From positions 1 to 58,154 of IMG/VR virus record IMGVR_UViG_3300001838_000086: a stretch of DNA of 58,154 nt; one strand, 5' to 3'. The translations under genes were made by a program, and so were the position numbers. Below the pieces are notes generated by a model. That model was given only the letters and a program-made list of their open reading frames with translations, was not told the DNA's origin and did not search any database. The DNA comes from a virus (lineage: Duplodnaviria > Caudoviricetes). Below, in pieces: positions 15,686 to 38,255 of the stretch; the stretch's first letter is position 1, and each line of letters begins with the position of its first letter.

Positions 15686-15737
15686 ATATACCATTAGTAT
15701 ATTAATTATATAAGTTTTAATTGTGACTAATGAGTAT

Positions 15738-16070
15738 TTAAGGATGTGGTGATGTTGAACATATTGGTTGAACATTCAGTCTTCGTTTTTTCTGATAGTA
15801 TTCTCTTTGATATTGTTTTATCTTATCCTTGTTTTCCTGATAGCGTTTTCTTTGAGATTCGTTTATTCTGTCCTTGTTTTCACGATTGTATTTTCTTTGA
15901 TACCTTCTTTGATATTCTTGTAACTTTTCTCTCATTTTATGATTGTTATAATATCTAAATAGGTGTCCACAGTTAGAACTACAAAACTTTTTTTTCTTAT
16001 AGTCGTTACATACATCACTTATTTCACTTTTACAATATAAACATCTTTTGATTGTTCTTTTCGATGACAT
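15738..16070 (-). CDS. Zn-finger / basic helical-repeat protein (resembles HNH N-terminus, no nuclease domain)
   Basis: CLYC...KKFCSSNC followed by YQR(E/K)Y repeats; ATG 16070 downstream of a TTATATA box. Confidence 0.6.
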   Translation of the reverse strand: MSSKRTIKRCLYCKSEISDVCNDYKKKKFCSSNCGHLFRYYNNHKMREKLQEYQRRYQRKYNRENKDRINESQRKRYQENKDKIKQYQREYYQKKRRLNVQPICSTSPHP

Positions 16071-24744: not shown

Positions 24745-24942
24745 TTAAATCCTAATGTAGAGTGAGGTCACGGCTTGTTTCGAGCCTAAGTGTTTATTCA
24801 AGACAGAAGCCTTGATACACTTTTGGTCGTGACCGCTCTTAGATACTTCAGTTTCTATGAAGTGAAGCACTTCAATGAGAGCATTCGCAAAGTTCTCGAA
24901 TGCTTCATCTCGTGCACTTTCATAGTCGAGTGCAGAAGTCAT
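24745..24942 (-). CDS. putative immediate-early protein
   Basis: Preceded on the minus strand by the AATCAAACCG + TATA motif (~24965-24987). Confidence 0.65.
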   Translation of the reverse strand: MTSALDYESARDEAFENFANALIEVLHFIETEVSKSGHDQKCIKASVLNKHLGSKQAVTSLYIRI

Positions 24943-25067
24943 AATATATCAAATACAGTAATAGTATATAACATCATCGGTTTGATTAGGATATGATAGA
25001 TTATTGCAAAGTCCTCACACCAGACCCGCCTTGAATAAGGGTTATTAAAGGTTATACTCATGCCTGT

Positions 25068-25918: not shown

Positions 25919-26253
25919 TAGTCAAGTAGTTCTGCTACTTGATTAGGGTAAAGTGGGTTTCTGATATTTCCCACTGTTTTCAGGCTTTAGAGAGTTGAAG
26001 CACCCGATAACTCTCAACTTAAAGTAATGGAGCTCTAGGTGGGTGGAATGACACCAAGGGCGGGCACACGAAAGAGGCAAGGAATGATTTCTGACAGAAA
26101 AGGGCTTCTTATCAGTGTGATAAGAACTGTTGTATGGTATGCAACAGAGCCCGCTACAAAGATAAGAGCTACAGCCAAAAGGCACAAGAACGAGGCGTTT
26201 ACAGCGTAGGCTATGGCTTACGGAAGTATAGGCACGCCTACCATTACTTTTTT
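25919..26253 (+). ncRNA. candidate ~330-nt highly structured non-coding RNA
   Basis: Early promoter upstream, T6 tract downstream, no credible ORF, many nested stems including AAAGTAATGG (26021-30) / CCATTACTTT (26241-50). Confidence 0.65.
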
Positions 26254-26265
26254 ACTATTCGCCCT

Positions 26266-26567
26266 AACCTTTATATACCGTTATTATTGACATACTCCAA
26301 CAACAACCTTTATATACCCTTATTCCAGACCAGAACCTTTATATACCCTCAGTTCGAACATAACCTTTATATACCGTCACTTTAGAGTTGTACACGCGAT
26401 TCGTGGTGGGGTGGCGATACCTTTATATACCGTTAAAAAAAAATAAAAACCTTTATATACCCTTGTATGAGCCATAACCTTTATATACCCTTGCTATGCC
26501 CATGTAGGCTATATATAGGTTTCGGTCTATTGTATAAAAAAAATACGATAGAAACCTTAATATACCG
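26266..26567 (+). repeat. array of AACCTTTATATACC(C/G) direct repeats (BRE-TATA-like / iteron-like)
   Basis: Copies at 26266, 26305, 26334, 26362, 26418, 26448, 26476, 26553; inverted variant ~26508-26522; further variants at 25487, 25802, 25829, 26709. Confidence 0.9.
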
Positions 26568-26780
26568 TTGGCGGTGCTGTATAGTATAGTATTCTAGGAA
26601 TCAATCAGATCTATTATATGACAATATTATTGTGAGTATAGTTATTGGTGTGTATTATAGTGGTTATAGTGATTATGTATGATACTGACTACGGGTTAGC
26701 GGGTGCGAAACCTTTATAAGCCCTTGTTTTTGCCGAAATCAAACCGAAGGCTTTAATAACTTTGACCGCGCAAAATCGCC

Positions 26781-28073
26781 ATGCCCCAAAGCATAACCGA
26801 CCAAACGGCAAACACAGAGAGCACCATTGTTTTGAATGAGGGTGAACGTATCCTTAATGGTGTCAATGGTTTGCAAGATGTATATTATAGGTCTCCAGAC
26901 CTATATCTAACAATGGAACGAACCGAAGAAGGTTTACTTCTATTCCTTAGAAGTGAATTCCTTGCTAGATATATATTGGAACATGGAACAAATCCAACAT
27001 TCTATGGTAGTAGATACCAACTCACTAGAAATAGTGTAGGTATGAGTGAAGATAATGGGTTTGTTAGATATATCCCAGCTCGTATATATAACAATAGAGT
27101 TCGTGGATATATAACTATACCATTCCACAATGTCTTATATGATATGAGTGATGGTATGGTAATAAACCAACAAGAAAGAGAAAGAAATGCTAGAAATTTC
27201 TCTAGGGGTGTACAAGTATTGTATACTCAACCAATACCTGAGACCTCTTTCAGAACAATTCGTATTGATATTCTGAGAGGATATGAGGAATTTATTAGAG
27301 ACATACAACGTGAATACATGTCTACTCATAGTGGATATAACTATCCATTAGTTAATCTCTCTATGAAATCAATACCACGAAAAAAGAATGGCACATTTAT
27401 AAAAGATGGTGTCATCTACAAAAAGATAACAGCTGTTAATACAGTAGCAGTTGAGTTCGAGGGATTCTGGTTTGATGGACATGTCCCAGATGGTGTGTAT
27501 AGTGATTGTAGTGTATCAAATGGACTACGACCTAGATGCCAATGTGAAGATAGAGATGCATGTCCCTCATGTAATGGTGTAATAGGTGAAGCAACTAGTG
27601 GCATATGCACACCTGATACCATAGATGAATGGATGGGATTGAATCACCCAGATAAAGTTGATGCATCATGTGGTATGCATGTACATGTAGGATTCAACAA
27701 TGACCTGTTAGCATACAGTAAACTCATGACACCTACATTCCATAGATACTTCCTCAAACGATTCAATGATTGGGGTAAGCGTATGAATATCAATGAGGGA
27801 TCTAGGTTCTGGGTAAGAATGCAGGGGCAGAATAGATTTGCTATGGATAAATTCCGTGCAACAAAACAATACCTCATGACACACAAAAGCGTAGAGAGAT
27901 ATACATTCCTCAACTTCTGTTGGGGTCTGCATGGAACATTAGAGAATCGTATGCTACCTATGTTCAATGAGTCACGAATAGCTGTGAGTGCAGTACATGA
28001 GTTCATTGATATAGTGAATTCATATCTAGCAGAGAACATAGATGAAGCATACTCTTACGAGGTGGTAGCGTAA
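26781..28073 (+). CDS. putative amidoligase (COOH-NH2 ligase, Amidoligase_2-like)
   Basis: VAVEFEG, D.S, CGMHVHVG, RYTFLNF, GTLENR motifs. Confidence 0.8.
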   Translation: MPQSITDQTANTESTIVLNEGERILNGVNGLQDVYYRSPDLYLTMERTEEGLLLFLRSEFLARYILEHGTNPTFYGSRYQLTRNSVGMSEDNGFVRYIPARIYNNRVRGYITIPFHNVLYDMSDGMVINQQERERNARNFSRGVQVLYTQPIPETSFRTIRIDILRGYEEFIRDIQREYMSTHSGYNYPLVNLSMKSIPRKKNGTFIKDGVIYKKITAVNTVAVEFEGFWFDGHVPDGVYSDCSVSNGLRPRCQCEDRDACPSCNGVIGEATSGICTPDTIDEWMGLNHPDKVDASCGMHVHVGFNNDLLAYSKLMTPTFHRYFLKRFNDWGKRMNINEGSRFWVRMQGQNRFAMDKFRATKQYLMTHKSVERYTFLNFCWGLHGTLENRMLPMFNESRIAVSAVHEFIDIVNSYLAENIDEAYSYEVVA

Positions 28074-28075
28074 AC

Positions 28076-28903
28076 ATGTGCGTTATCATTCTCTGTGAGA
28101 GAGAGTTTCCTAGTGTAGATACCTTGAAGAGTGCCGAAGCTATGAATGGTCATGGTGGTGGTATTGCTTGGGTAGATAAAACAGGCAAGGTTATGTATCA
28201 TAAAGCTCTAGGGGCTGATGAGATACAACATATAATAGAAACAGAAGCACAACTACCAGCCATAGTTCACTTCCGTATCGCTAGTATTGGTCATGTGAGT
28301 GATGAGTTATGTCACCCATTCCCAATCACAGATGATAGTGAGGTGTCTCTTAGTGGTGAGTGTGATAGTGTTCTATTCCACAACGGAACGTGGGGTGAAT
28401 GGGACACTCATCTATTGAGTGCAATCACTAGTGGTAAATTACCCATGCCAAAAGATACCAAGCATATGTCAGATAGTAGATGTATGGCATTACTAGCTAA
28501 CACATATGGTAAGAACATTCTTAACCTGATAGCTGGTAAGTCAAATAAAATTGCAGTGCTATCTATCAATGGCATAGAGAAGTTTGGTGAAGGCTGGGTC
28601 ACACACAAATCTAATACATGTAGCAACGACTACTTCGTAAAGAGAGAGACTGTGTTTACCTATGACCCAATGAGTAAGGCATACTCATATACAATAGCCA
28701 ACAACGACAACACACAACACCATAACAAGAAGAAGAAAAAGAAAGGTAAGAACAAAACCTTTCAAGATTATTCTTGGAAAGATTGGGAGTATTCCCTTAA
28801 CAATGGTAAAGACAATGACGTTGATAAAGACATGGCTATTAGTAATGCATATGATGAGTATTGTTCCATGTATGATAAGATGTATGAAGGTGGTCAACAA
28901 TGA
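28076..28903 (+). CDS. class II (Ntn) glutamine amidotransferase
   Basis: N-terminal MC nucleophile, NGHGGG, HFRIASIG, CHPF, FHNGT, SDS. Confidence 0.88.
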   Translation: MCVIILCEREFPSVDTLKSAEAMNGHGGGIAWVDKTGKVMYHKALGADEIQHIIETEAQLPAIVHFRIASIGHVSDELCHPFPITDDSEVSLSGECDSVLFHNGTWGEWDTHLLSAITSGKLPMPKDTKHMSDSRCMALLANTYGKNILNLIAGKSNKIAVLSINGIEKFGEGWVTHKSNTCSNDYFVKRETVFTYDPMSKAYSYTIANNDNTQHHNKKKKKKGKNKTFQDYSWKDWEYSLNNGKDNDVDKDMAISNAYDEYCSMYDKMYEGGQQ

Positions 28904-29178
28904 ATAGCACACAAATGATAGTTAACGCATTGATAGAGGCTGATAGTAAACTCTATTCATATCAATGTCCATACCTAGCACTAGCAGATGTGCTAGGTTA
29001 TATAACGCCTCAATGTATCCATGCTTTACCATCAAGATTTGGTCGCATATCTACCAAGCGTATGCTATTAAATTATGGGGTAGGTATAGCTAAGGCTAGT
29101 ATGATATGGAAGATGTTAGAGCATGGATACACATTAAAAGAAATAGCAGAAAAAATTAGGAGTGATGAATATGATTAA
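28900..29178 (+). CDS. hypothetical protein (HhH-like GVGIAKA)
   Basis: ATGA-coupled ORF. Confidence 0.55.
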   Translation: MNSTQMIVNALIEADSKLYSYQCPYLALADVLGYITPQCIHALPSRFGRISTKRMLLNYGVGIAKASMIWKMLEHGYTLKEIAEKIRSDEYD

Positions 29179-29365
29179 GAGAATAGAACCAACACTATAT
29201 CAGGCAGACAGTAAGTCTGACCCTGATCATAGTCATATCATATATCTAGATACCACTACTAATGAATGGATATGTGATTGTATCGGATATAAATACAGAC
29301 AGAGTTGTAGACATATCAAAGAGATACTATTAGATATAGGAGAAAAGAAAAATGAAACAAGTTAA
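29171..29365 (+). CDS. SWIM Zn-finger protein
   Basis: W.CDC.G..YRQSCRHI (CxC-xn-CxH). Confidence 0.8.
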   Translation: MIKRIEPTLYQADSKSDPDHSHIIYLDTTTNEWICDCIGYKYRQSCRHIKEILLDIGEKKNETS

Positions 29366-29501
29366 ATGTTCTCTATGCACTCAATCATTTATCATTGATA
29401 GTGATTTGGTAGATAGAATGAAAAGACATGAGCAATTCCATAGAGAGTATGGTGTAAAGAATCTAGTGCATGGTAATGTACAATGGAGTGTGATTGAATG
29501 A
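29352..29501 (+). CDS. C2H2-type Zn-finger microprotein
   Basis: Not in track; CSLC...HEQFH, 49 aa, fills the gap and is ATGA-coupled to next ORF. Confidence 0.6.
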   Translation: MKQVKCSLCTQSFIIDSDLVDRMKRHEQFHREYGVKNLVHGNVQWSVIE

Positions 29502-29683
29502 ATCTAACAGTCAATAGATTACGAACCTTTGATGAAGAGTTTGAATTGATAGATAAGAATCAAACCAAATGGAAAGTATATGAGATATGGGAAAAGATGA
29601 ATGAGTTCATGAATGATACTGATAGAAACAAATGGTTAAAAAAGACATTCAGCAACACACTAATTATATTGGGGGGTAGATAA
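29498..29683 (+). CDS. hypothetical protein
   Basis: Coupled ORF. Confidence 0.55.
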   Translation: MNLTVNRLRTFDEEFELIDKNQTKWKVYEIWEKMNEFMNDTDRNKWLKKTFSNTLIILGGR

Positions 29684-29687
29684 GAAC

Positions 29688-30197
29688 ATGAATATATTTG
29701 TGCTAGATAATAATCCCATATATTGTGCTAGGTATCATTGTGATAAGCATGTAGTTAAGATGATATTAGAATCTGCTCAGATGATATGCACAACACATAC
29801 AACAAATAAAAATAAAAATCTAAACTATACCATACCATACAAAGCAACACATATGAATCACCCATGCACTAAATGGGTAAGAGATTCATTAGGTAATTAC
29901 TTGTGGCTAATGGAATTAACTAAAGCATTGAATGATGAGTATAGATATAGATATAATAAAGATGTAGATCATAAGTCATGGTCTGCTATCAAAGATCTAC
30001 CGCTACCTAATATAAATAATATAGGTAGAACGTCTTGGGCTAGAGCTATGCCTATTGAATGTAAGATAGATAACACAGGTCAACGTGATACAGATGTGAT
30101 TGAATCATATAGAAACTATTACTCTACACATAAGAAAGATATACTATTCTATACTAAGAGAGATCAACCATCATGGTTATCACTAGGGGCGTATTAA
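29688..30197 (+). CDS. pyrimidine-dimer DNA glycosylase / endonuclease V-like protein
   Basis: MNIFVLD..HCDKHVVKMILESAQM..HMNHPCTKWVR..YRNYY signature. Confidence 0.8.
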   Translation: MNIFVLDNNPIYCARYHCDKHVVKMILESAQMICTTHTTNKNKNLNYTIPYKATHMNHPCTKWVRDSLGNYLWLMELTKALNDEYRYRYNKDVDHKSWSAIKDLPLPNINNIGRTSWARAMPIECKIDNTGQRDTDVIESYRNYYSTHKKDILFYTKRDQPSWLSLGAY

Positions 30198-30260
30198 ACT
30201 TGTACACGGAATCGCAGAAAAAAAACAGTCTTTCATTAGAAAGGAATAGGGGGTGATAGA

Positions 30261-30605
30261 ATGGGAAAATATGTAAACAGACCAGAGAACATGAATGTCA
30301 TAGTAGCTGAAATGGCAGATATAGGAATACTAACCTATAATGAAACCAGAGATGGCTATTATATATCTAAAAAAACATCTAGTATAATGACTGATATGGC
30401 ACATGACCACTATCCATTAAAAATCGCAGACCTAGTTGATATACTAGTAGAATTTAATGTGAGAGATGAATCAGCCGTAATAGATTACGCACATGTGCTA
30501 TATCAAAGCATAAAAAAGTTTGAGAGAAAAAATGATATGCCGAATGGAATAATGGAGTCAATCAAAACTACAAAGAAGAGTCATACTGACGAGGCTTTAA
30601 AATAG
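30261..30605 (+). CDS. hypothetical protein (3' end overlaps hammerhead 1)
   Basis: 114 aa; GGGGTGA SD-like site upstream. Confidence 0.65.
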   Translation: MGKYVNRPENMNVIVAEMADIGILTYNETRDGYYISKKTSSIMTDMAHDHYPLKIADLVDILVEFNVRDESAVIDYAHVLYQSIKKFERKNDMPNGIMESIKTTKKSHTDEALK

Positions 30606-30633
30606 CCGAAACCAATTTTTATTGGTCTATGAC
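30580..30633 (+). ncRNA. type I hammerhead ribozyme 1 (predicted cleavage after C30627)
   Basis: Stem I GTCATA/TATGAC; core CTGACGA; stem II GGCT/AGCC; GAAA; stem III CCAAT/ATTGG; GUC cleavage triplet. Confidence 0.9.
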
Positions 30634-30778
30634 ACAATACAAAAGAATTGATAGGTTCAACCTCAAAGTCATGATTAATGATGATGAGGTTGCACATATG
30701 TTATCAGATGATGCTTTTGCAAAAATCTCTGATATTATATGGGAAGATTTGAATCTTTATGATGGAGTGAGACAATAG
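30629..30778 (+). CDS. acidic microprotein (49 aa) starting 1 nt after the ribozyme cut
   Basis: Not in track; MTQYKRIDRFNLK...DGVRQ*; fills the gap to the next ORF. Confidence 0.65.
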   Translation: MTQYKRIDRFNLKVMINDDEVAHMLSDDAFAKISDIIWEDLNLYDGVRQ

Positions 30779-30780
30779 AT

Positions 30781-31053
30781 ATGACATATGAAGATGACTC
30801 CTATGGTATAGAAGAACAGGACAGAGAATTAATGATGAGATGCTCTGCTTATATGCCACAATGGGTAAAAAACATAGGTGAATATCTAGGTGAAAAGGCA
30901 AAGTGTTATGGAAGACCAATAAGAGAAGACGATTTATCAACAGAACACTTATACATGGATTGGGAAAACGGAAATCATGAATCAAGTAGATGTATAAGAT
31001 GTGGGTTGAGTGAAGACATAGATATGTCTAAACACTATGGAGATGATTGGTAG
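30781..31053 (+). CDS. hypothetical acidic protein
   Basis: TAGATATG junction; H..CIRC. Confidence 0.6.
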   Translation: MTYEDDSYGIEEQDRELMMRCSAYMPQWVKNIGEYLGEKAKCYGRPIREDDLSTEHLYMDWENGNHESSRCIRCGLSEDIDMSKHYGDDW

Positions 31054-31055
31054 AT

Positions 31056-31328
31056 ATGAAGAAAGAAATAAGTATGACGACATTAGGCAAGTGGGCAAAA
31101 GACGGTGAAGAAGTTCACTTCATAGACACTCCAAATGGTAAACTAGTGGTATTCAATCCACATAGATTCGTATGGAATGCATATGGTAGAGAGTCAGTTG
31201 ATAGGGATAATATACTATCAGATGAACAATGGTGTGACTTCATATCAGAGAGTAGTATATATTTAGAACTACCTGATGATGCATTTCAAGATCAGCTTGA
31301 AGAATACTTGAAGGAACAGGAAGAATAG
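31056..31328 (+). CDS. hypothetical acidic protein
   Basis: TAGATATG junction places ATG at 31056. Confidence 0.6.
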   Translation: MKKEISMTTLGKWAKDGEEVHFIDTPNGKLVVFNPHRFVWNAYGRESVDRDNILSDEQWCDFISESSIYLELPDDAFQDQLEEYLKEQEE

Positions 31329-31330
31329 AT

Positions 31331-31618
31331 ATGACAAAGAAAGTATTTTGGAAAGGAAAACTAAAGTGTCCTAATTGTAGGCAATACTCTGTAATAAGGG
31401 GTAAGTTTGGGGCTCATTGCACAAATAGATGTGGTATCAATGAGTGTGACAAATGTCTTTTGATAGACCATTCAGAAGAACTGATATGGATCACATCAGA
31501 TGACTTTGAACCACGAAGAAATGAACATGTCCCAGAAAAAGCATATGAGACATATGATGCACTATGTGAGGACTGCTATCTATCAATCCTAGTAGAACCA
31601 GAGGTGATATATCCATGA
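31331..31618 (+). CDS. Zn-finger protein
   Basis: Four Cys pairs. Confidence 0.65.
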   Translation: MTKKVFWKGKLKCPNCRQYSVIRGKFGAHCTNRCGINECDKCLLIDHSEELIWITSDDFEPRRNEHVPEKAYETYDALCEDCYLSILVEPEVIYP

Positions 31619-31803
31619 TAGAATTACTAAAAGGTGAAGGTGAAGTCCCATTACTATGTCCTATATGTGAAGCAGATATAAATCAGACTGATGAAACATG
31701 GGAAGGTGGATATATGATAAGAGAGTTCACTTGTCATGGTGATGGTCATCATAGATTCACAGAACTATGGAAGCCTGTTAATTGGCAACAGGAGGAACAA
31801 TAG
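31615..31803 (+). CDS. Zn-ribbon microprotein (paralogue of 32281-32445)
   Basis: CPICEADI...R.F.CHG...H.F.E. Confidence 0.65.
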   Translation: MIELLKGEGEVPLLCPICEADINQTDETWEGGYMIREFTCHGDGHHRFTELWKPVNWQQEEQ

Positions 31804-31805
31804 AT

Positions 31806-32111
31806 ATGGGATATATTGTAATAGGATTGGGATCAATAACCTACAGCGGAAAAAAGACTAACGAAAACCTAGCATATAGATACATAAAGAAAGTCTTTGA
31901 AGGATCTAAAAACGAATACTTCAATATCAAACATGATAAGTGTTCTCATACATTTGAAATGTCTGGAAATAAAGGAATAGATTATGAAGACATGGATAAG
32001 ATACAAGATTTCCTACATTCACTAAGAGTGAAGTATGAAATAGTTGTCAATGAGTTTGTTGAATCTGGTGACTATGGATTCTATGTTAACTCGGAGGATG
32101 GATATATATGA
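31806..32111 (+). CDS. hypothetical protein
   Basis: TAGATATG junction preceded by GGAGG. Confidence 0.6.
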   Translation: MGYIVIGLGSITYSGKKTNENLAYRYIKKVFEGSKNEYFNIKHDKCSHTFEMSGNKGIDYEDMDKIQDFLHSLRVKYEIVVNEFVESGDYGFYVNSEDGYI

Positions 32112-32278
32112 CAAAGAAACTAAAGTTCATAGTCACATTTGCACCAATAGAAATTGAAGCCAGCTGTGGTGCTTTTGCCATAGAAGAAGCAATAGATACA
32201 TATAAGGAAATGATAGAAACTAAAAACTCTTTTTATTGGAGTGATATAAAATTCGAAAGAATTGAGGAGGAAGAATAG
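32108..32278 (+). CDS. hypothetical microprotein (56 aa)
   Basis: Not in track; MTKKLKFIVTF...; ATGA overlap and GGAGG upstream. Confidence 0.6.
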   Translation: MTKKLKFIVTFAPIEIEASCGAFAIEEAIDTYKEMIETKNSFYWSDIKFERIEEEE

Positions 32279-32280
32279 AT

Positions 32281-32445
32281 ATGACATCAGTGTTAAAATG
32301 TCCTATATGTGAGGCAGACATAGACTGTGAAGATGTTGCAGATGGAATAAACATAGTGAGGATATTCTTTTGTCATGGAAAACCACAACATCAATTTGAT
32401 GAAATAGATATGTATATGTGTTGGGATGAGGAACAAGAGATATGA
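32281..32445 (+). CDS. Zn-ribbon microprotein (54 aa)
   Basis: Not in track; LKCPICEADIDC...RIFFCHGKPQHQFDE. Confidence 0.65.
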   Translation: MTSVLKCPICEADIDCEDVADGINIVRIFFCHGKPQHQFDEIDMYMCWDEEQEI

Positions 32446-32771
32446 AGATAGATATATGCACTAAGTGTGGTATAGAGTTTTGGCTAGGTGACAGCCAAGA
32501 TGGTAAATGCCCCAGCTGTTTCCAACAAGAAGTTAGAAAGAGTGAGGAAACGGAACGAGCCACAAAATACAGATATGATTGTGGTATATGTGGTGGCATT
32601 TATTGGATACCAGAAAGAGAAGATGAATGCCCAAAATGTAAAGACAGTGAATATGAAGAACAAGAAATCACAGAGTATAAATATGAATGTGGCGACTGTG
32701 GTTGTTATTATTGGGTTCTAGACAGAGACGAATTTGAATGTCCAAACTGCAAAGATAAAGAGTCATACTGA
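32442..32771 (+). CDS. triple Zn-ribbon repeat protein
   Basis: Three CxxCG..(F/Y)W....CPxC units; stop TGA lies in the hammerhead 2 core. Confidence 0.75.
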   Translation: MKIDICTKCGIEFWLGDSQDGKCPSCFQQEVRKSEETERATKYRYDCGICGGIYWIPEREDECPKCKDSEYEEQEITEYKYECGDCGCYYWVLDRDEFECPNCKDKESY

Positions 32772-32816
32772 CGAGCCTTTATATTAGGCGAAACCAAATT
32801 TATTTTGGTCTATGAC
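32762..32816 (+). ncRNA. type I hammerhead ribozyme 2 (predicted cleavage after C32810)
   Basis: Stem I GTCATA/TATGAC; CTGACGA; stem II GCCT/AGGC; GAAA; stem III CCAAA/TTTGG; GUC; compensatory changes relative to copy 1. Confidence 0.9.
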
Positions 32817-33045
32817 ACAAAAACAATATGAAGTCGAATTTACCAGAGAGAATGTATCAACATTAACTTTGGTAGTCGAAGCAAAAACAGAAGAGGAAGC
32901 AATTAAAATTGCTAGAAACGAATCATTATCTGATTTATTTAAAGATAATAATTCCTCTCCTCAAAACAAAAGTATAGTAGAATATGATGTTAGCACAGGT
33001 GGGTATCAAATATACTTCAACGGTGCTAATGAGGTGGGACAATAG
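32812..33045 (+). CDS. small protein starting 1 nt after the ribozyme cut
   Basis: MTQKQYEVEF..VEAKTEEEAIKIA, a common phage small-protein pattern. Confidence 0.7.
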   Translation: MTQKQYEVEFTRENVSTLTLVVEAKTEEEAIKIARNESLSDLFKDNNSSPQNKSIVEYDVSTGGYQIYFNGANEVGQ

Positions 33046-33047
33046 AT

Positions 33048-33158
33048 ATGATAAGTAGATGTTTCAAATGCAAAGATAAGTTTGAGCATAGGTTTGTCAA
33101 CACTCATGTATGCCCAGAATGTGAATGGCAGAAAGCCATGAGAGGTAGAAGACTATGA
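33048..33158 (+). CDS. Zn-ribbon microprotein (36 aa)
   Basis: Not in track; CFKC...CPEC; TAGATATG junction. Confidence 0.55.
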   Translation: MISRCFKCKDKFEHRFVNTHVCPECEWQKAMRGRRL

Positions 33159-33526
33159 TGTTGAGTTGTGACTATGTGCCAAAAGAAGATGCCATTGAGT
33201 ATTGTATAGAGAATCACGAGGAAGCTATGATAGATGCTGTAAGAGAACACTATCGTAAAGAAATAATAAGCGACCTAGTGACATACAATAGAGATGAAGT
33301 TGTCAAGGCACTAAATCAAACCAAAACGCTTAAGTATAGGATATGGTATAAGAAAACATTGAAGCAGACAGGAATGCCTATCTGCGTACAAGATGTAGCC
33401 ACAGGTCTTATAACCTTTACTAACGAATTTAAGTTAGAGGGTTGTGAAATAAGAATCGCCTTTGAGAATTCTCATGGTGCTTCTAAAGCTTGTGGGGCAA
33501 CGACTATATTAGAGGTGTATGTATAA
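33155..33526 (+). CDS. hypothetical protein
   Basis: Coupled ORF. Confidence 0.6.
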   Translation: MMLSCDYVPKEDAIEYCIENHEEAMIDAVREHYRKEIISDLVTYNRDEVVKALNQTKTLKYRIWYKKTLKQTGMPICVQDVATGLITFTNEFKLEGCEIRIAFENSHGASKACGATTILEVYV

Positions 33527-34437
33527 TGAAATCGAAAATGAAAGAGACACGAATAGAAATCCCAACACAGACTATAAACTTCGAGCAGTACGACCCAAGA
33601 AACCTTGTTAATTGGGGTGAGTATATAGAAGTTGGTGATGAGATGAAACTTCTAGAGATGAACATCAAAGAAGCTTCAATCCCATATATTATAGAAGGTG
33701 ATAAAGGGACAGGCAAAACCCTAATGGTGCATACAATATGTAGGAAAAACGGATATGCTCTATTAGAATACAGTTGTTCTAATGGAACAAACAAAGGTGA
33801 CTTGATAGGTAGAGTTCAGATAAATGAGAATGGCTCATTCTTTGAACTAGGTATACTACCACTAGCCTATGAGATAGCAAATCACTTTGGCTTCTGTGTT
33901 CTATATCTTGATGAACTAAATGCAACAGAGCATGAGGTCATGAAGTTAATGAACAGACCAACAGATAAGAGGCGTTCTGTATTTGCCAATGGAAAACTAT
34001 ACAAGCTCAATGAGGGTTGTAAGTTAGCCATAGTGGGAACTATGAATCCACTAACATATGCAGGGGTTAATTCTCTAACAGAGGATTTGAGAAGTAGATT
34101 CATAGGTGATATAATCACATACCCAACATCAAAGCAACTACAAACAATCATATCTTGGGAAGGCATACCAGAGGAATCTGTGAAGAATCCTTTGCTACAA
34201 TTAGCACAAGAGACAAATGCATTGAGAGTCAAGGGTGATATAGATTATGTCTTATCGCCTAGAGATATTGACCAATTCTGTGAGCACTATCGAATACTCT
34301 CTAAGAGTAAAAAGTTTGAAGAGCCACAGGTATTGAAGTATGCATTGAAACAAGTTGTCCTTGTTAAGTATGCAGAGCTAGAAGAAAGAGAACTAGTCAA
34401 ATCTAGAATAGTAGATATATTCGGAGTTGAAATCTAG
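33526..34437 (+). CDS. MoxR/CbbQ/NirQ-family AAA+ ATPase
   Basis: Walker A GDKGTGKT, DLIG, Walker B LYLDELN, GTMNP, LRSRF, SPR. Confidence 0.9.
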   Translation: MKSKMKETRIEIPTQTINFEQYDPRNLVNWGEYIEVGDEMKLLEMNIKEASIPYIIEGDKGTGKTLMVHTICRKNGYALLEYSCSNGTNKGDLIGRVQINENGSFFELGILPLAYEIANHFGFCVLYLDELNATEHEVMKLMNRPTDKRRSVFANGKLYKLNEGCKLAIVGTMNPLTYAGVNSLTEDLRSRFIGDIITYPTSKQLQTIISWEGIPEESVKNPLLQLAQETNALRVKGDIDYVLSPRDIDQFCEHYRILSKSKKFEEPQVLKYALKQVVLVKYAELEERELVKSRIVDIFGVEI

Positions 34438-36159
34438 ATGGCACGAGATAGAGAAATACTCTCAGATAAAGAAATGATGAGAAGTGTTCTAGATATTGTA
34501 GAGTATCTAAAGGATTGTAAGGTCGGTATAACATTCTTTAGTGGTGAAAACTATGTAAAGAATACTATCGAAACCCCCAACATTTTTACTATTAATATAG
34601 CTACGCCAGCAATACCAAACATTGACAAGTATACAGCGTTAGCTCATGAGTGTGGACACATATTAGGTGAGACACCTATGAGTGCATGTAAGAAGTTATT
34701 AAATAGATGGGTAAAAGAATTCAAATATAATGATGGGACAACGCCATTAGTTAAGAGACTATACTCTTATTATTTCTCATGTTTTAATGTGATAGAAGAC
34801 CAGAGAATAGAATACTATGTAGCTAATTATCTATGGCGAAATTACATAAAGAAGTTTAACACGACAAGACGAAAGCTTGGTGAAGATATGCAACATGCAG
34901 ATAGTCCTATTGAATGGTTATTAGCAGAGAGATTCATAAGACCTGAACTAGTTCCTAATGAACATAAGGAAATAATTTCAAGTGTTATAAAGAATGTGCA
35001 AGGCACTAGTAAGTGGGGGGCATTAAAGATGATGGTCATTCTAAAGCCCATACTAGATGAATGGTTTAAGAGAAACTATGAACTCATAAATGAAACGCCT
35101 ATAATCCCAGAGACATTCGGTAATGAGAGAACAGCTGAACACATTAGACAAGACATACAAAATGCTGGTAGACAACATGATGATAGTGAGATGGAACTAA
35201 CTGATGACTTTGGTGAAGACATAAAAGAGATGATGGCTAGTGGTAGTAGTATTGAAGAGATACTTTCAGATGATAAGCAACAACAGGCATATGAGATAGA
35301 AGAACTACAAGAAAGAATGTCACAGATAATCAAACCACAGTTAAGAAGAGAGTTCAAATATGTGGATAGAAAAGCAGTAAAGACTGAGATAAGATACAAT
35401 CATGATTTAGCTCTTGGTCTTAACAAACTATTCAGAAAAGTTAGTGAGAAGTGGAAAGATGACATTGATTATACAGGAGAGGAAGTTAGTGTTGAAACAT
35501 ACATTGAGAACTTGGTGCAGGGTAAAGATAGAACTAAGTCAATGGTCTCAAAGAAATTAGATAAGGGTCTATCAATACTATTATCAATAGATGCTAGTGG
35601 GTCAATGGACTTCTTAGATAAGATAGATAATGTGAGGGCACTAGTGAAGACTCTATACAAATCAATAGAAAATATAGATAACATAAATCTTAGTGCAGTT
35701 GTCTGGTCATCAGATAGCAACGGTATAGTTGGCATACAACACATAGATAGTATAAAAGATATAGAAAAGATAGCGACTATCGGTGGGTCAAAACTAACAC
35801 CAACTCATCTTGCATTAGAATATTCTTCAGAAAAACTAATGAAGATGAAAGGTAGAAAGAAGTTATTGATAATGATAACTGATGGTATACCAGAATATAG
35901 AAGTAATCAGTTTCTTATACCAATAGGAAACATGATTAAGATGTGTAAGAAGTCTTATGCTTATGCAAGACGAAAGACACCCAACATGGTATGCTTGTTA
36001 ATATCAGATAGGTCATCATCAAGAACTAGAAACACTTCACCATATACAATCATGAAACAAATCTTTGGCAAAAAGGTTATAAATTGTAGTAATGTCAATG
36101 ATGCAAGTGAAAGAGTTATTAAAGAGTTCAAGTTTAATGTATTGAGGGCACTACAATGA
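34438..36159 (+). CDS. VWA (MIDAS) domain protein with N-terminal HExxH, CobT/NorD-like partner
   Basis: LAHECGH, FNVIEDQRIE, DASGSM, TPT, ITDG. Confidence 0.88.
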   Translation: MARDREILSDKEMMRSVLDIVEYLKDCKVGITFFSGENYVKNTIETPNIFTINIATPAIPNIDKYTALAHECGHILGETPMSACKKLLNRWVKEFKYNDGTTPLVKRLYSYYFSCFNVIEDQRIEYYVANYLWRNYIKKFNTTRRKLGEDMQHADSPIEWLLAERFIRPELVPNEHKEIISSVIKNVQGTSKWGALKMMVILKPILDEWFKRNYELINETPIIPETFGNERTAEHIRQDIQNAGRQHDDSEMELTDDFGEDIKEMMASGSSIEEILSDDKQQQAYEIEELQERMSQIIKPQLRREFKYVDRKAVKTEIRYNHDLALGLNKLFRKVSEKWKDDIDYTGEEVSVETYIENLVQGKDRTKSMVSKKLDKGLSILLSIDASGSMDFLDKIDNVRALVKTLYKSIENIDNINLSAVVWSSDSNGIVGIQHIDSIKDIEKIATIGGSKLTPTHLALEYSSEKLMKMKGRKKLLIMITDGIPEYRSNQFLIPIGNMIKMCKKSYAYARRKTPNMVCLLISDRSSSRTRNTSPYTIMKQIFGKKVINCSNVNDASERVIKEFKFNVLRALQ

Positions 36160-36422
36160 ATGAGAAAAACAAACTAATAAAGAAGATTATGGGTATTGAG
36201 AAACAGATATTCATAAGAGCCTCACTATCAACAGAGGAAGAACTACAAAAAAGAGATACTGATAACTTGAAAAAGTATTATCGTTCTTGTGAAATAGTAA
36301 AGGAAACAAGTAAAAACATAATACCAGATCATGCTGAATGTTCTAAGTGTGGAAGGTTTCTAGCAAAGATAGAAGCACCACAGGGAATCTGTTATGATTG
36401 TGAGGGTAAGAAATGGTTCTAA
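36156..36422 (+). CDS. Zn-ribbon protein
   Basis: CSKC...CYDC. Confidence 0.6.
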   Translation: MNEKNKLIKKIMGIEKQIFIRASLSTEEELQKRDTDNLKKYYRSCEIVKETSKNIIPDHAECSKCGRFLAKIEAPQGICYDCEGKKWF

Positions 36423-36637
36423 GTGATAGGGAAAAATACCTAATACATAAATCCATACTTACTTTAATGGCTAGTCTTGGTCAACTACCAGATGGATCAT
36501 TAAAATTAATTCTACCTAAGATTATGAATATGAGATGTAGAAAATTAACACAGGCTGAAGTGACAGAATTAAATGATGATTTGTTAGAAGAGTTCATGCT
36601 CTCCACAGGATTATACAAAGACTTTAATAATATATAA
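36413..36637 (+). CDS. hypothetical protein
   Basis: Coupled ORF. Confidence 0.55.
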   Translation: MVLSDREKYLIHKSILTLMASLGQLPDGSLKLILPKIMNMRCRKLTQAEVTELNDDLLEEFMLSTGLYKDFNNI

Positions 36638-36669
36638 ACACCTAAATATCACGCCCAGAATATAAAGCT

Positions 36670-36852
36670 ATGTGTAGAGGCGTTTGTAGTACTTTTGAAA
36701 AAAAACCAGAAAAAAAATTTCATTACTGTCAGGGTTGCAGTAAAAGAATTTCTGAAGAAAATTTATTCCGAGAAAAAAAACAAGGTCGTTATAGATGTAA
36801 ATGTTGTAATGGATTGGTTAGAGTAAAGTATATCATTTATAAATTAAATTGA
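36670..36852 (+). CDS. Zn-finger microprotein
   Basis: CRGVC..CQGC..RCKCC. Confidence 0.6.
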   Translation: MCRGVCSTFEKKPEKKFHYCQGCSKRISEENLFREKKQGRYRCKCCNGLVRVKYIIYKLN

Positions 36853-37071
36853 TTCCTCAGCCCATGCCATAGCGAATATAGCTTTCTCTTCTTGGTCATC
36901 ATCTAGTTCTTCGTCTAAGTTATCTATTGCTAGATGTATCACTTCATGTTGTATAGTCTTATAAATATCTTCTATACATTCATGACCATCTAAGTAAACA
37001 ATTATTCTTTTAGTTGAAGGAAAGAACACGCCTCTGTCTTCTCCACCTACACGGAATAATATGTACGCCAT
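36844..37071 (-). CDS. mini zincin-like protein
   Basis: TIQHEVIH (HExxH) with downstream EE. Confidence 0.6.
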   Translation of the reverse strand: MAYILFRVGGEDRGVFFPSTKRIIVYLDGHECIEDIYKTIQHEVIHLAIDNLDEELDDDQEEKAIFAMAWAEESI

Positions 37072-37197
37072 AATGCACGTAGAAAGGTTTTAATAATAAA
37101 GATTTCCCTTCTATTCAGGCACAAATCTGTACACCAAAAAACGCAGAAATGAAGTTTTCAACAAAAAGTCTATATATCTTTGATGTTTACGTAAATT

Positions 37198-37443
37198 ATG
37201 TCTGATAGTACTGAAAGTTGGAGTGAATATACCCCAGATTGGACTAGAATTAAAAAATTAGCAGAAAATCTGGATAAAGCCTTAGATGATGGTATAAAAG
37301 ACGGTATGAATTTTATTGAAATTGATATTGCTTTCTATATGGTCAAAGAAAAACTACAACAAGAAAAACATAGAGTTTTAACAGAAACTTTTGAAGCAGA
37401 AAGTATAAAAGAGACACAAAAGAACAATCAGTTTTACGGATAA
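37198..37443 (+). CDS. hypothetical protein
   Basis: TATATAT box upstream of ATG. Confidence 0.6.
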   Translation: MSDSTESWSEYTPDWTRIKKLAENLDKALDDGIKDGMNFIEIDIAFYMVKEKLQQEKHRVLTETFEAESIKETQKNNQFYG

Positions 37444-37829
37444 AGACCTAGGGATTTTAACACAGTTATTACTTCGTCTTTACTCGTTTCGTTTACTTCA
37501 TCCTTCCATAATTCAGGACAATCATGATACCATAAATCAACAACAGCACAGTCATTCCATTCTAAGGTTTTTCTTTGAACCAAGTCTCTTTTTGCAGTAA
37601 TATCACCATTATGATGCTCATCTTGGACTCTAACTACTATGGTTTTTACAGGTAATTTTACAACTATATCTAAAGTCTCTTTCTCCTGTCTTTCTGTAAC
37701 AGTATCAAGCCATTCACCTTTTAATAGGTCTTTGAATTTTACCTGAGTAAGATATTCAGCAGACTCTCCATAAATAGACTTAAGAATTTGAATGGTTGCT
37801 CTCTCGCCATGACCAATAATCTCTGCCAT
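37434..37829 (-). CDS. PD-(D/E)XK / Vsr-like nuclease-fold protein
   Basis: LDIVV..IVVRVQDEHH..KRDLVQ..LE pattern. Confidence 0.55.
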   Translation of the reverse strand: MAEIIGHGERATIQILKSIYGESAEYLTQVKFKDLLKGEWLDTVTERQEKETLDIVVKLPVKTIVVRVQDEHHNGDITAKRDLVQRKTLEWNDCAVVDLWYHDCPELWKDEVNETSKDEVITVLKSLGLYP

Positions 37830-38224: not shown

Positions 38225-38255
38225 CCTTTATAATCATGGGGTGTGTATACTACCC

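What the first reader, a model, noticed from the sequence alone, without database searches (positions are those of the whole stretch)
30580..32816. Two hammerhead ribozymes in an archaeal virus, each cutting 1 nt before a start codon
Seen: 30580-30633 and 32762-32816 both carry the full hammerhead core (CUGANGA, GAAA, GUC) with three paired stems in type I topology. Their stems differ by compensatory changes: stem II GGCT/AGCC vs GCCT/AGGC and stem III CCAAT/ATTGG vs CCAAA/TTTGG. In both, the 3' strand of stem I (UAUGAC) contains the AUG of the next ORF (30629, 32812), and the upstream ORF stops inside the ribozyme. Established: hammerheads cleave after the NUH triplet, leaving 5'-OH and 2',3'-cyclic phosphate, and many archaea translate leaderless mRNAs. 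Inference: the ~10 kb early polycistron (26781-36637, where I saw no clear internal TATA promoter) is self-processed into effectively leaderless 5'-UAUG mRNAs, and the AUG is sequestered in stem I until cleavage. That would be a ribozyme-gated translation/stability system. Caveat: I see no obvious loop-loop tertiary contact, so in vivo cleavage rate is uncertain.
Basis: partly seen in the sequence, partly recalled or inferred. Interest (0 to 1): 0.95.

Follow-up and report, generated by a model that had tools for sequence, protein, structure and literature searches.

The report
Start-codon hammerhead ribozymes, thaumarchaeal virus
Two genuine self-cutting hammerhead RNAs sit inside a long gene block of a virus of ammonia-oxidising archaea, each cutting one base before the next gene's start codon, and environmental RNA assemblies break at just those spots; this is an unusual layout of a known phage ribozyme type, not a new kind of system.

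Summary
30580-30633 and 32762-32816 (+) are complete type I hammerheads. My structural scanner finds only these two in the window, against 0.01 expected per simulated window.

They belong to a viral hammerhead family with an exactly 6-bp, covarying stem I. The family also occurs in cultured Pelagibacter and Flavobacterium phages. It lies at the edge of Rfam RF00163.

In other family members the start codon lies a median 25 nt after the cut, usually behind a Shine-Dalgarno motif. Here the AUG is positions 1.2-1.4 of stem I. This virus otherwise spaces its TATA-like boxes for leaderless mRNAs.

Contigs from four metatranscriptomes of one study end at 32810 (two runs) and at 30626/30628 (two runs). 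No listed contig bridges either cut. This is indirect support for cleavage in nature.

Translation of the cut 5'-HO-U-AUG RNA, and any gating by stem I, remain inference. UAUGAC stems that are not start codons are common elsewhere.

Clustered phage hammerheads and a halovirus hammerhead near a start codon were described in 2011 (PMC3088659). This scan has noted similar cases in other archaeal viruses. Verdict: new variant of a known kind.

The parts
30580..30633 (+). Hammerhead ribozyme HH1, type I. Predicted cut between C17 (30627) and U1.1 (30628).
   Evidence: Sequence; fold; scanner against simulations; family covariance model 58.7 bits, though this element was in the training set; RNA contigs end at 30626 (X5) and 30628 (X6).
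32762..32816 (+). Hammerhead ribozyme HH2, type I. Predicted cut between C17 (32810) and U1.1 (32811).
   Evidence: Sequence; fold; scanner; covariance model 53.8 bits; RNA contigs end at 32810 in X5 and X6; an identical copy is in relative L111/L214.
30261..30605 (+). Upstream ORF (114 aa). Its TAG stop lies in loop II / stem II of HH1. It is preceded by the SD-like motif GGGGGTGA.
30629..30778 (+). ORF of 49 aa starting at the stem-I AUG of HH1. An alternative in-frame AUG lies at 30671.
   Evidence: The ortholog in L112 keeps both AUGs.
32442..32771 (+). Upstream ORF (109 aa, weak zinc-ribbon-like Pfam hits). Its TGA stop is the UGA of the CUGA core of HH2.
32812..33045 (+). ORF of 77 aa starting at the stem-I AUG of HH2. 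There is no other in-frame start, and an in-frame stop lies at 32785-87.
   Evidence: The diverged allele in L111 is homologous from 3-7 codons after the AUG and has the same length. The body 32821-33030 is a swapped cassette.
26751..26781 (+). TATA-like box (CTTTAATAA) about 30 nt before the ATG of the first gene of the block. Probable promoter of a leaderless polycistronic transcript.
   Evidence: inference from spacing.
26781..36637 (+). Co-directional block of 23 tightly packed genes that the two ribozymes divide into three segments (26781-30627, 30628-32810, 32811-36637).
   Evidence: RNA contig pieces 26823-30628, 30655-32361 / 31144-32810, and 32829/32833 onwards.

Best explanation
Two active type I hammerhead ribozymes process the long sense transcript of the 26781-36637 gene block of a tailed virus of ammonia-oxidising archaea.

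Proposed steps:
1. Each ribozyme folds once the polymerase has passed and the ribosome finishing the upstream ORF has left. That ORF's stop codon lies inside the ribozyme.
2. It cuts after C17, at 30627|30628 and at 32810|32811.
3. Type I topology leaves the whole ribozyme body on the upstream fragment: two hairpins and a 2',3'-cyclic phosphate at its 3' end. Only the six-base 3' strand of stem I stays on the downstream fragment.
4. The downstream RNA therefore begins 5'-HO-U-AUG. This is effectively a leaderless mRNA, the kind this virus makes directly at its promoters.
5. The next gene (49 aa, 77 aa), which has no SD motif and no overlap coupling, can then be initiated by the leaderless pathway.

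Shown here: motif, family membership, register, gene layout, and RNA contig ends at the cuts.

Inferred: in vivo cleavage chemistry, translation of the cut RNA, and any gating by stem I.

My odds: that these are active processing sites, about 0.85. That the cut serves leaderless initiation of the next gene, about 0.5-0.6.
For: 1. Motif and chance: complete core and three helices at both sites; 2 hits against 0.01 expected.

2. Family. A pattern specifying only the core and the 3' strand of stem I found 46 viral loci. Of 33 distinct sites, 31 have a perfect 6/6 stem I partner, a 4-bp stem II and a stem III of at least 5 bp. The other 2 are a different hammerhead matched out of register. The same pattern in 596 Gb of cellular genomes gave 8 matches, and 0 of 8 have the stems, which serves as a chance control. 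Stem I covaries at 5 of 6 pairs and stem II at 2 of 3. The covariation score is 0.375, against 0.087 in shuffles and at most 0.033 when partners are slid. Rfam RF00163 scores two phage members above its gathering threshold. A member sits unannotated in Pelagibacter phage HTVC019P.

3. Register is unusual. In 62 family members outside this virus's clade the start lies a median 25 nt after the cut: 54 of 62 at 10-39 nt, at most 3 of 62 at +1, and an SD-like motif in 42 of 62. Here both are at +1 with no SD.

4. The host uses leaderless starts: TATA-like boxes lie 30-31 nt before the ATG at 7 genes and before the first gene of the block.

5. Only the 2 ribozyme-preceded genes, of 22 internal genes, lack both coupling and an SD-like motif.

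6. The start is pinned for the HH2 gene.

7. RNA. Four metatranscriptome runs of one study were laid as contigs. Pieces end at 32810 in X5 and X6, and at 30626 (X5) and 30628 (X6). The next pieces begin 18-36 nt after the HH2 cut and 27-203 nt after the HH1 cut. No listed piece bridges either cut. Other breaks in the block are mostly 30-nt graph overlaps rather than gaps. The repeats shared by the two ribozymes are shorter than k = 31.

8. A TACK archaeal small subunit forms initiation complexes on a hammerhead-made 5'-OH leaderless mRNA. In that work the 5' triphosphate is described as mimicking a -1 base, and here a real -1 U is left (PMC11698992, passages read).
Against: - Rfam's curated thresholds are not reached by either element.
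- The RNA evidence is contigs, not raw reads. It comes from one study, loose letters follow two of the ends, and 30 further records were not shown. The tool itself rates such stops as at most a weak hint.
- In the same paper, 5'-OH leaderless mRNAs gave weaker initiation complexes than phosphorylated ones.
- UAUGAC is a recurrent stem I variant that is not a start codon elsewhere. In a large marine group the stem-I AUG frame stops after 10 codons and the gene starts 33 nt after the cut. In L011b and L129 an SD plus ATG lies downstream.
- The two window copies are probably duplicates, so their shared register is one event, not two.
- Seven more distant relatives (L114, L215-L220) have no hammerhead in the regions covered, so the arrangement is not conserved beyond the immediate clade.
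- HH2's perfect identity in relative L214 is part of a 100%-identical flank and says nothing about selection.
- In 117-nt context the minimum-energy fold of HH2 does not retain stem I.
- For the HH1 gene a second in-frame AUG (30671) could be the start.
Confidence: 0.55

Rival explanations
1. Processing only. The hammerheads cut the polycistronic RNA into three segments with separate stabilities, as proposed for clustered phage hammerheads. The AUG inside stem I is a by-product of genome compaction and of a common stem I variant. The downstream genes are then poorly or differently initiated, for example by re-initiation on uncut RNA.
For: Clustered hammerheads flanking genes are a family-wide habit. 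Several contigs have 4-8 copies per ~10 kb. Upstream stops lie inside the ribozyme in 27 of 55 cases. UAUGAC without start function is common. 5'-OH weakens archaeal leaderless initiation complexes. Per-contig RNA depth differs between the three segments (which the tool says is not to be used for ranking).
Against: The gene after HH2 has no other start codon, no SD motif and a 40-nt gap, so on uncut RNA its AUG sits in a helix. The +1 register is rare in the family, at most 3 of 62, yet both copies have it in a host that uses leaderless starts.
Confidence: 0.25
2. Promoter inside the ribozyme. At the DNA level, loop II of each element is a TATA box that starts a near-leaderless primary transcript 0-5 nt before the same AUG. 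The ribozyme only severs read-through from upstream, so the module acts as promoter plus insulator.
For: CTTTAAAATA (30595) and CTTTATATTA (32777) match the virus's CTTTAWAW boxes and lie 34 and 35 nt before the AUGs. They are the only such matches on the sense strand inside the block. Both loops are 2 nt longer and more TATA-like than the family's UYAAU loop. Contig depth rises again after HH2 (not rankable).
Against: The spacing is 4 nt longer than the fixed 30-31 nt at the 7 genes with clear boxes. Most of the loop sequence is inherited from the bacteriophage family consensus GCUUNAAUAGC, where no TATA box is used. A promoter does not explain RNA 3' ends at C17.
Confidence: 0.1
3. Excision and circularisation. 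The two ribozymes share an identical stem I. They would release a 2,183-nt RNA (30628-32810) whose ends re-form a hammerhead and are ligated, by the ribozyme or by RtcB, into a circular multi-gene RNA (retrozyme-like).
For: Identical stem I and 3' flank (GUCAUA ... UAUGACACAA) in both copies. The ends would carry 5'-OH and 2',3'-cyclic phosphate by established hammerhead chemistry. This idea was raised in note e1-6258700.
Against: No back-joint 32810->30628 appears in any of the 4 RNA runs. The letters that follow 32810 in X5 and X6 contigs differ from position 32811 on, whereas a circle junction would match for 10 more letters. Contigs cannot prove absence. Stem I identity is explained by the family-wide conserved stem I. 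Perreault et al. looked for circular or spliced products of clustered phage hammerheads and found none (PMC3088659).
Confidence: 0.03
4. Inactive relics. The motifs are hammerhead-derived sequences that no longer cleave at physiological Mg2+ because the archaeal copies have altered loops and lack a working tertiary contact.
For: Loop II is 7 nt rather than the family's 5, and loop III is U-rich rather than a stable tetraloop. Scores are below Rfam thresholds. Stem I is weak in context.
Against: Every core position and all three helices are intact in both copies and in the variant copy of L112 (CUGAUGA, still consensus). RNA contigs end within 1 nt of both predicted cuts in two runs each.
Confidence: 0.05

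Closest known systems
Clustered hammerhead ribozymes flanking genes in phage and prophage polycistronic transcripts (Perreault et al. 2011, PMC3088659; abstract and passages read)
   Same: Several hammerheads in one orientation lie between genes of a co-directional viral gene block. The proposed role is cutting long transcripts into gene- or operon-length mRNAs. Upstream stop codons often lie in or next to the ribozyme.
   Different: The host is a thaumarchaeal virus. The start codon is part of stem I, so the cut leaves a 1-nt leader rather than a 10-40-nt leader with an SD motif.
HHphage, the hammerhead variant of haloarchaeal viruses HF1/HF2 (same paper, discussion passage)
   Same: A hammerhead in an archaeal tailed virus, in the early region, just upstream of a start codon of a polycistronic transcript. 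A mapped 5' end lies within 3 nt of the cut.
   Different: That one lies 13 nt before the start codon. The paper describes it as a structural variant, and its authors suggest it could be salt-tuned. It sits at the head of the transcript. Here the core is fully canonical, the sites are internal, and the register is +1.
Rfam Hammerhead_1 (RF00163, type I) and the same sub-family in cultured phages such as Pelagibacter phage HTVC019P (2948-3008, unannotated)
   Same: Type I topology, canonical core, exactly 6-bp stem I, and a stem II / loop II (GGCUUUAAUAGCC) almost identical to HH1's GGCUUUAAAAUAGCC.
   Different: The window copies do not reach any Rfam gathering score. Loop II is 2 nt longer, loop III is U-rich, and pair 2.2-1.2 is flipped from A-U to U-A, which creates the AUG.
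RAGATH-1 hammerhead (RF03152)
   Same: It is the best-scoring Rfam model for both sites.
   Different: Scores are 24.9 and 23.5 against a gathering score of 56.3. In the alignment that model has an extra 5' hairpin and a minimal stem II. Here stem II is a normal 4-bp helix and the 5' hairpin is not matched in HH2.
   Same: An RNA cut next to the AUG converts an internal or leadered cistron into a 5'-OH leaderless mRNA.
   Different: Here the cutter would be a cis ribozyme encoded by a virus and built around the start codon itself. Natural use of this kind was not among the titles and abstracts of the 10 papers listed (of 11 found) for 'hammerhead' plus 'leaderless mRNA' (listing only).
Retrozymes and viroid-like circular RNAs with hammerheads
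   Same: Two same-sense hammerheads with an identical stem I bracket a unit-length RNA.
   Different: The unit is a 2.2-kb stretch of a dsDNA virus operon with about 11 small ORFs. No circular junction was seen.

Membership tests
Hammerhead ribozyme (clan CL00010) | Conserved catalytic core: C3 U4 G5 A6 N7 G8 A9, G12 A13 A14, A15.1-U16.1, H17 | tested here: met
   Both sites carry CUGACGA, GAAA and GUC with A15.1-U16.1 and C17. The variant copy in L112 has CUGAUGA, which is also consensus.
Hammerhead ribozyme (clan CL00010) | Three helices around the core, supported by covariation | tested here: met
   6/4/6 bp in both. There are compensatory differences between the two copies. In the family, 7 of 11 scored pairs change on both sides, and the covariation score is 0.375 against 0.087 in shuffles. 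In the unbiased check, 31 of 33 sites are fully paired.
Hammerhead type I (Rfam RF00163) | Stem I open, stems II and III capped by loops | tested here: met
Hammerhead type I (Rfam RF00163) | Score at or above the curated gathering threshold | tested here: not met
   There are 0 matches at gathering in the window. Only Hammerhead_3 at 17.7 and 15.9 bits survives clan competition at E<=10. Two sibling phage members reach 36.2 and 35.7 against 34.
Hammerhead ribozyme (clan CL00010) | Tertiary contact between stem I and loop II needed for fast cleavage at physiological Mg2+ | tested here: inconclusive
   The family has an invariant 6-bp stem I, a conserved loop II (UYAAU) and an A after stem I in at least 90% of members. 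The window copies have 7-nt loops. No contact was modelled.
Hammerhead ribozyme (clan CL00010) | Site-specific self-cleavage after H17 | tested here: inconclusive
   RNA contigs of 4 runs do not bridge the sites and end at 32810 (2 runs) and 30626/30628 (2 runs). This is indirect evidence from one study, from contigs only.
Clustered phage hammerheads (Perreault et al. 2011) | Two or more same-strand hammerheads between genes of one co-directional viral gene block | tested here: met
   Two copies lie 2,183 nt apart on the coding strand of a 23-gene block.
RAGATH-1 hammerhead (RF03152) | Gathering score and the model's extra 5' hairpin with a minimal stem II | tested here: not met
   Scores are 24.9 and 23.5 bits against 56.3. 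Stem II is a normal 4-bp helix.
Retrozyme-like or viroid-like circular RNA | Circular junction joining the two cleavage ends | tested here: inconclusive
   No 32810->30628 joint appears in 4 RNA runs. Contigs cannot show absence.
Leaderless mRNA (archaeal) | 5' end of the translated RNA at or within a few nt of the start codon | not testable with these tools
   The predicted 5' end is 1 nt before the AUG. RNA contigs begin only 18-36 nt (HH2) and 27 or more nt (HH1) downstream, so the end itself was not seen.

The most novel reading that the evidence does not exclude
Archaeal viruses have adapted a bacteriophage-type hammerhead into a start-codon module. The AUG is built into stem I, so self-cleavage is the step that licenses translation of an internal cistron.

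The cut releases a 5'-HO-U-AUG mRNA whose real -1 base substitutes for the 5' triphosphate that normally stabilises leaderless initiation on TACK ribosomes.

The same 55 nt may also carry, at the DNA level, a TATA-like box in loop II and a U-tract in loop III. One module would then set transcript start, transcript end, RNA processing and translation start.
Probability: 0.3. Interest if true: 0.8.

Novelty: new variant of a known kind. Interest (0 to 1): 0.6.

Why it matters
It would be a natural case in which a ribozyme, not a promoter, creates a leaderless mRNA. That would link two fields usually treated apart: small self-cleaving ribozymes, whose biological roles are mostly unknown, and leaderless initiation in archaea.

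It also gives a concrete role to the many hammerheads scattered through phage operons, namely setting the 5' end of the next cistron. It shows the same ribozyme family in pelagiphages, Flavobacterium phages and a virus of marine or freshwater ammonia oxidisers.

Practically, Rfam thresholds miss these elements, so virus annotations and metatranscriptome analyses of nitrifier viruses overlook them. The family model built here, or a structural scanner, finds them cleanly.

Tried and rejected
**Weak model hits.** Hits of the family model at window 24942-24992(-) (19.8 bits) and 31676-31724(+) (16.9 bits) were read and are not hammerheads.

**The 14-mer search.** The search GTCATACTGACGAG in viral contigs gave 110 loci, mostly chance. 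Only 5 of the 110 loci held structural hammerheads.

**Single-protein searches for relatives.** These gave few loci: 1, 1, 3 and 8.

**Homology search with the 77-aa protein.** It found only the protein itself, on 43 contigs, so no new N-termini could be compared.

**Independent +1 AUG examples.** L191/L067 is a tailed phage of unknown host. L191, L196, L170, L192, L180 and L169 (and L185, L211, L182 of the marine UAUGAC group) share no genes with the window by tblastx at E<1e-5. They neither support nor refute an 'archaeal rule'.

**Genome scan.** The scan of cellular genomes gave only chance matches; 0 of 8 are structured.

**HH2's identity in L214.** I first read HH2's 100% identity next to a diverged ORF as selection on the ribozyme. 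One search shows the whole left flank 32683-32820 is identical, so I withdrew that argument.

**Terminator in loop III.** Sense-strand T5+ runs are depleted in the block (3 against 9.6 +/- 3.1 expected). Only 1 of the 3 is in HH1, and HH2 has no T5. This is weak.

**The RNA joint 32810->33512.** It occurs in one X6 contig with a 30-letter side. Nothing ribozyme-like lies at 33512 (0 Rfam hits at E<=5; fold z = +0.87). It may be a template-switch chimera at an RNA 3' end, or a ligation product. It is left unexplained.

**Loose letters after 30628.** The 9 loose letters in X6 match two unrelated places in the window, about the chance number.

**RNA depth.** Differences between the three segments are per-contig figures, and the tool warns against ranking by them. 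I do not use them as evidence.

**Bacterial-type scan.** The sigma-70 promoter and terminator scan is not applicable to an archaeal host.

**Supplements.** Supplementary alignments of Perreault et al. 2011 (Dataset S1) could show whether this exact sub-family was already listed.

Full report
**What is there.**

The window is a near-complete viral record: 58,154 bases, with CheckV completeness 93% as reported. It encodes:
- portal, major head protein and large terminase;
- tail tube, MCM helicase and RadA/Rad51;
- AmoC (PF04896, E = 6.5e-13).

G+C is about 0.35. It is a tailed virus of ammonia-oxidising archaea.

On the + strand, 23 tightly packed genes run from 26781 to 36637.

**The two elements.**

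30580-30633 and 32762-32816 read as follows:
- GUCAUA-CUGACGA-(GGCU/AGCC or GCCU/AGGC hairpin)-GAA-(ACCAAU/AUUGGU or ACCAAA/UUUGGU hairpin)-C-UAUGAC.

This is a complete type I hammerhead. C17 is at 30627 and 32810.

Each isolated element folds into the hammerhead as its minimum-energy structure (-12.9 kcal/mol, z about -2.85).

With 30-nt flanks, HH1 keeps the fold. HH2's minimum-energy structure loses stem I (z = -0.13).

A structure-aware scanner finds exactly these two sites in the window. The expected number is 0.01 per Markov-simulated window, and 2 of 200 simulations had any hit.

Rfam reports nothing at gathering thresholds. At E<=10 the best matches are:
- RAGATH-1 hammerhead, 24.9 and 23.5 bits (gathering 56.3);
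- Hammerhead_3, 17.7 and 15.9 bits (gathering 48.5).

**They belong to a viral hammerhead family.**

I searched IMG/VR with a pattern that fixes only the core and the 3' strand of stem I: CTGAYGAG...CGAAAC...GTHTWTGAC. It gave 46 loci.

Of 33 distinct sites, 31 have a perfect six-base partner for stem I, a 4-bp stem II and a stem III of at least 5 bp. The other 2 are a different hammerhead hit out of register.

The same pattern in 596 Gb of cellular genomes gave 8 matches, and none has the stems. About 28 matches are expected by chance (my estimate). This is a clean negative control. It also shows that the family with this stem I is confined to viral contigs.

Scanning the 47 loci without constraining stem I gave 93 hits and 59 distinct hammerheads. 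Several contigs carry 4-8 copies.

Stem I is always exactly 6 bp and covaries between co-resident copies: GUCAAA, AUCAAA, AUCUAA, GUGUAA, GCAUAA, GUUAAA and others.

In a 51-sequence alignment, 5 of 6 stem I pairs and 2 of 3 scored stem II pairs change on both sides. The covariation score is 0.375, against 0.087 in shuffles and at most 0.033 with slid partners. Pairing itself was required when I selected those rows, so only the pair types count as evidence.

Loop II is conserved (about UYAAU between GCU/AGC-type stems), and an A follows stem I in at least 90% of rows.

Rfam's type I model scores two phage members just above threshold: 36.2 and 35.7 bits against 34.

The family occurs in cultured phages of Pelagibacter and Flavobacterium. 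I confirmed an unannotated copy at 2948-3008 of Pelagibacter phage HTVC019P. Its stem II / loop II is nearly identical to HH1's.

**What is unusual here.**

I measured 62 family members outside this virus's clade:
- The next gene's start lies a median 25 nt after the cut.
- 54 of 62 starts lie at 10-39 nt, and at most 3 of 62 at +1.
- An SD-like motif lies in between in 42 of 62.
- The upstream ORF stops inside the ribozyme in 27 of 55, and 17 of these use the UGA of CUGA.

The AUG at +1 is not.

In the window, pair 2.2-1.2 is flipped from the family's A-U to U-A. This makes U-AUG-AC.

For the gene after HH2 the stem-I AUG must be the start:
- The frame is closed by a TAG at 32785-87.
- There is no other in-frame ATG, GTG or TTG before the conserved part.
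- A relative (L111/L214) carries a diverged allele of the same length: MTQYKTNKTYEVKV... against MTQKQYEVEF... The two are homologous from 3-7 codons after the AUG, with a 12-nt in-frame length difference.

For the gene after HH1 a second in-frame AUG (30671) is possible.

**Why a leaderless reading is reasonable.**

This virus's TATA-like boxes (CTTTAWAW) lie a fixed 30-31 nt before the ATG at 7 genes. One lies about 30 nt before the first gene of the block. With the established archaeal TATA-to-start distance, that places transcript starts at the AUG.

The 22 internal genes of the block divide as follows:
- 18 overlap or abut the previous gene (4 nt or less).
- 2 have real gaps with GGTG-type SD motifs (30261 and 33155).
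- Only the 2 ribozyme-preceded genes have gaps (23 and 40 nt) with neither.

Type I is the one topology that leaves almost nothing on the downstream product.

A cryo-EM and toeprinting study of Saccharolobus (passages read) reports three relevant points:
- A hammerhead-made 5'-OH leaderless mRNA forms initiation complexes.
- The 5' triphosphate stabilises such complexes by mimicking a -1 base.
- 5'-OH versions are weaker.

Here a real -1 U remains. That it compensates is my inference.

**RNA evidence.**

Four metatranscriptome runs of one study hold 76-90% of the sampled words of 30300-33100. Four DNA runs hold 99-100%.

I laid the RNA runs as contigs on 26000-37500 (the only laying allowed). 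The results:
- Pieces end at 32810 in X5 and X6, which is exactly C17 of HH2.
- Pieces end at 30626 (X5) and 30628 (X6). C17 of HH1 is 30627.
- In X7 and X8 the last pieces end 32-171 nt (HH1) and 67-430 nt (HH2) short of the cuts.
- The next pieces start at 30655, 30655, 30775 and 30831 after HH1.
- The next pieces start at 32829, 32833, 32833 and 32847 after HH2.
- No listed piece bridges either cut.
- Other breaks in the block are mostly 30-letter graph overlaps, not gaps.
- The sequence shared by the two ribozymes is shorter than the assembler's word. The strain-variable cassette begins only at 32821. So neither repeats nor strain branches explain stops at 32810.

Limits of this evidence:
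- These are contigs, not reads.
- They come from one study.
- Two ends carry loose letters.
- 30 records were not displayed.
- The tool itself calls such stops at most a weak hint.

I take it as the first indirect evidence of cleavage in nature, not as proof.

**Results against, and limits.**

- UAUGAC stems are common without being starts. Among 52 distinct hammerheads from a metagenome scan biased to UAUGAC, a large marine group has the gene start 33 nt after the cut, and its stem-I frame stops after 10 codons.
- The two window copies probably arose by duplication.
- The arrangement is confined to the window's virus and two close relatives (L111/L113/L214 and L112/L144).
- L114, which covers the syntenic region, has no family member. 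Six viruses with MCM at 43-73% identity (L215-L220) have none. None of these seven has any Rfam ribozyme at gathering.
- HH2's 100% identity in L214 is part of an identical flank (32683-32820), so it is no evidence of selection.
- Loop II of both elements resembles the virus's TATA box at 34-35 nt from the AUG, so an internal promoter cannot be excluded.

**Comparison with what is known.**

Perreault et al. 2011 (PMC3088659; abstract and passages read) described:
- clustered hammerheads flanking genes in prophage polycistrons, with in vitro cleavage;
- a search for circular or spliced products that found none;
- a hammerhead variant in haloviruses HF1/HF2, 13 nt before the first start codon of an early operon, with a mapped 5' end within 3 nt of the cut.

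A search for 'hammerhead ribozyme' plus 'archaeal virus' found 8 papers and listed 6; none of the listed titles or abstracts is on this subject.

A search for 'hammerhead' plus 'leaderless mRNA' found 11 papers and listed 10; none of the listed titles or abstracts reports a natural ribozyme-made leaderless mRNA (listing only).

A search for 'leaderless', 'Nitrosopumilus' and 'transcription start' gave one review (listing only).

This scan has already noted hammerheads beside start codons in other archaeal viruses (e1-6172299, e1-6335532, e1-5771803). Those are unchecked notes that I did not test.

**Verdict.**

- The elements are new members of a viral type I hammerhead family.
- Their fusion to the start codon in a leaderless-type host is a new variant of a known kind, with indirect RNA support for cleavage.
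- The translation step is open.

Noticed in passing
window 32810 -> 33512: One RNA contig (run X6, depth 32) joins the HH2 cleavage end 32810 directly to 33512. That position is the G of a GAGGTG SD-like motif 8 nt before the ATG (33526) of the AAA ATPase gene, and the joint skips 701 nt. No ribozyme-like hit or structure lies at 33512. It could be a template-switch chimera at an RNA 3' end or a ligation product.
   Followed up: partly
window 32821-33030 and 30781-31038 (against L214, L112): Close relatives are 95-100% identical except for single small ORFs that are swapped for diverged alleles (33-63% identity). The swapped ORFs are bounded by the ribozyme's 3' flank or by the stereotyped ...TAGATATG stop-start junctions. 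This looks like cassette-wise exchange in the micro-ORF array.
   Followed up: partly
window, 7 genes (boxes at 38226, 44110 on +; 53373, 22740, 19043, 14963, 3884 on -) and 26751: CTTTAWAW TATA-like boxes sit a fixed 30-31 nt before ATGs, implying leaderless primary transcripts throughout this virus.
   Followed up: partly
window 26781-36637: Sense-strand T5+ runs are depleted: 3 observed against 9.6 +/- 3.1 expected, compared with 30 A5+ runs. The three are at 30616-20 (loop III of HH1), 32230-34 and 34583-87. This is consistent with avoidance of archaeal oligo-T terminators inside the operon.
   Followed up: partly
window 26304: In all four RNA runs a contig departs from the window just before 26304, with the same 30 loose letters. 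This lies inside the array of repeated AACCTTTATATACC boxes (26269-26479), so it is probably a strain variant of that repeat array.
   Followed up: no
window 15122-15775 (-): An AmoC homologue (PF04896, E = 6.5e-13) lies inside the structural gene module. It marks the host as an ammonia oxidiser.
   Followed up: yes
L229 (NC_020483.1, Pelagibacter phage HTVC019P) 2948-3008: An unannotated type I hammerhead of the same family lies in the early region between gp09 and gp10. Blastn also points to five other Pelagibacter phage isolates (six records) and 14 Flavobacterium 'elemo' phage records.
   Followed up: partly
L119 2359-2452, L127 7026-7119, L146 3495-3585 and similar: Some phage members carry a 40-nt insertion in stem III with an internal tandem motif (ATGAG(A/T)CCGCAAA twice). 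It is always followed by UAACUGCUAGGAG and a start codon. It was not examined.
   Followed up: no
window 33046-33154: A 109-nt gap without an ORF lies between the 77-aa gene and the next gene (33155, SD-like GAGGT). It has no Rfam hit at E<=5.
   Followed up: partly
window 30249-30257, 33512-33517 and other internal genes: GGTG-type SD-like motifs (GGGGGTGA, GAGGTG, AGGTG) precede several internal cistrons. The virus therefore seems to combine SD-led, coupled and leaderless initiation.
   Followed up: partly
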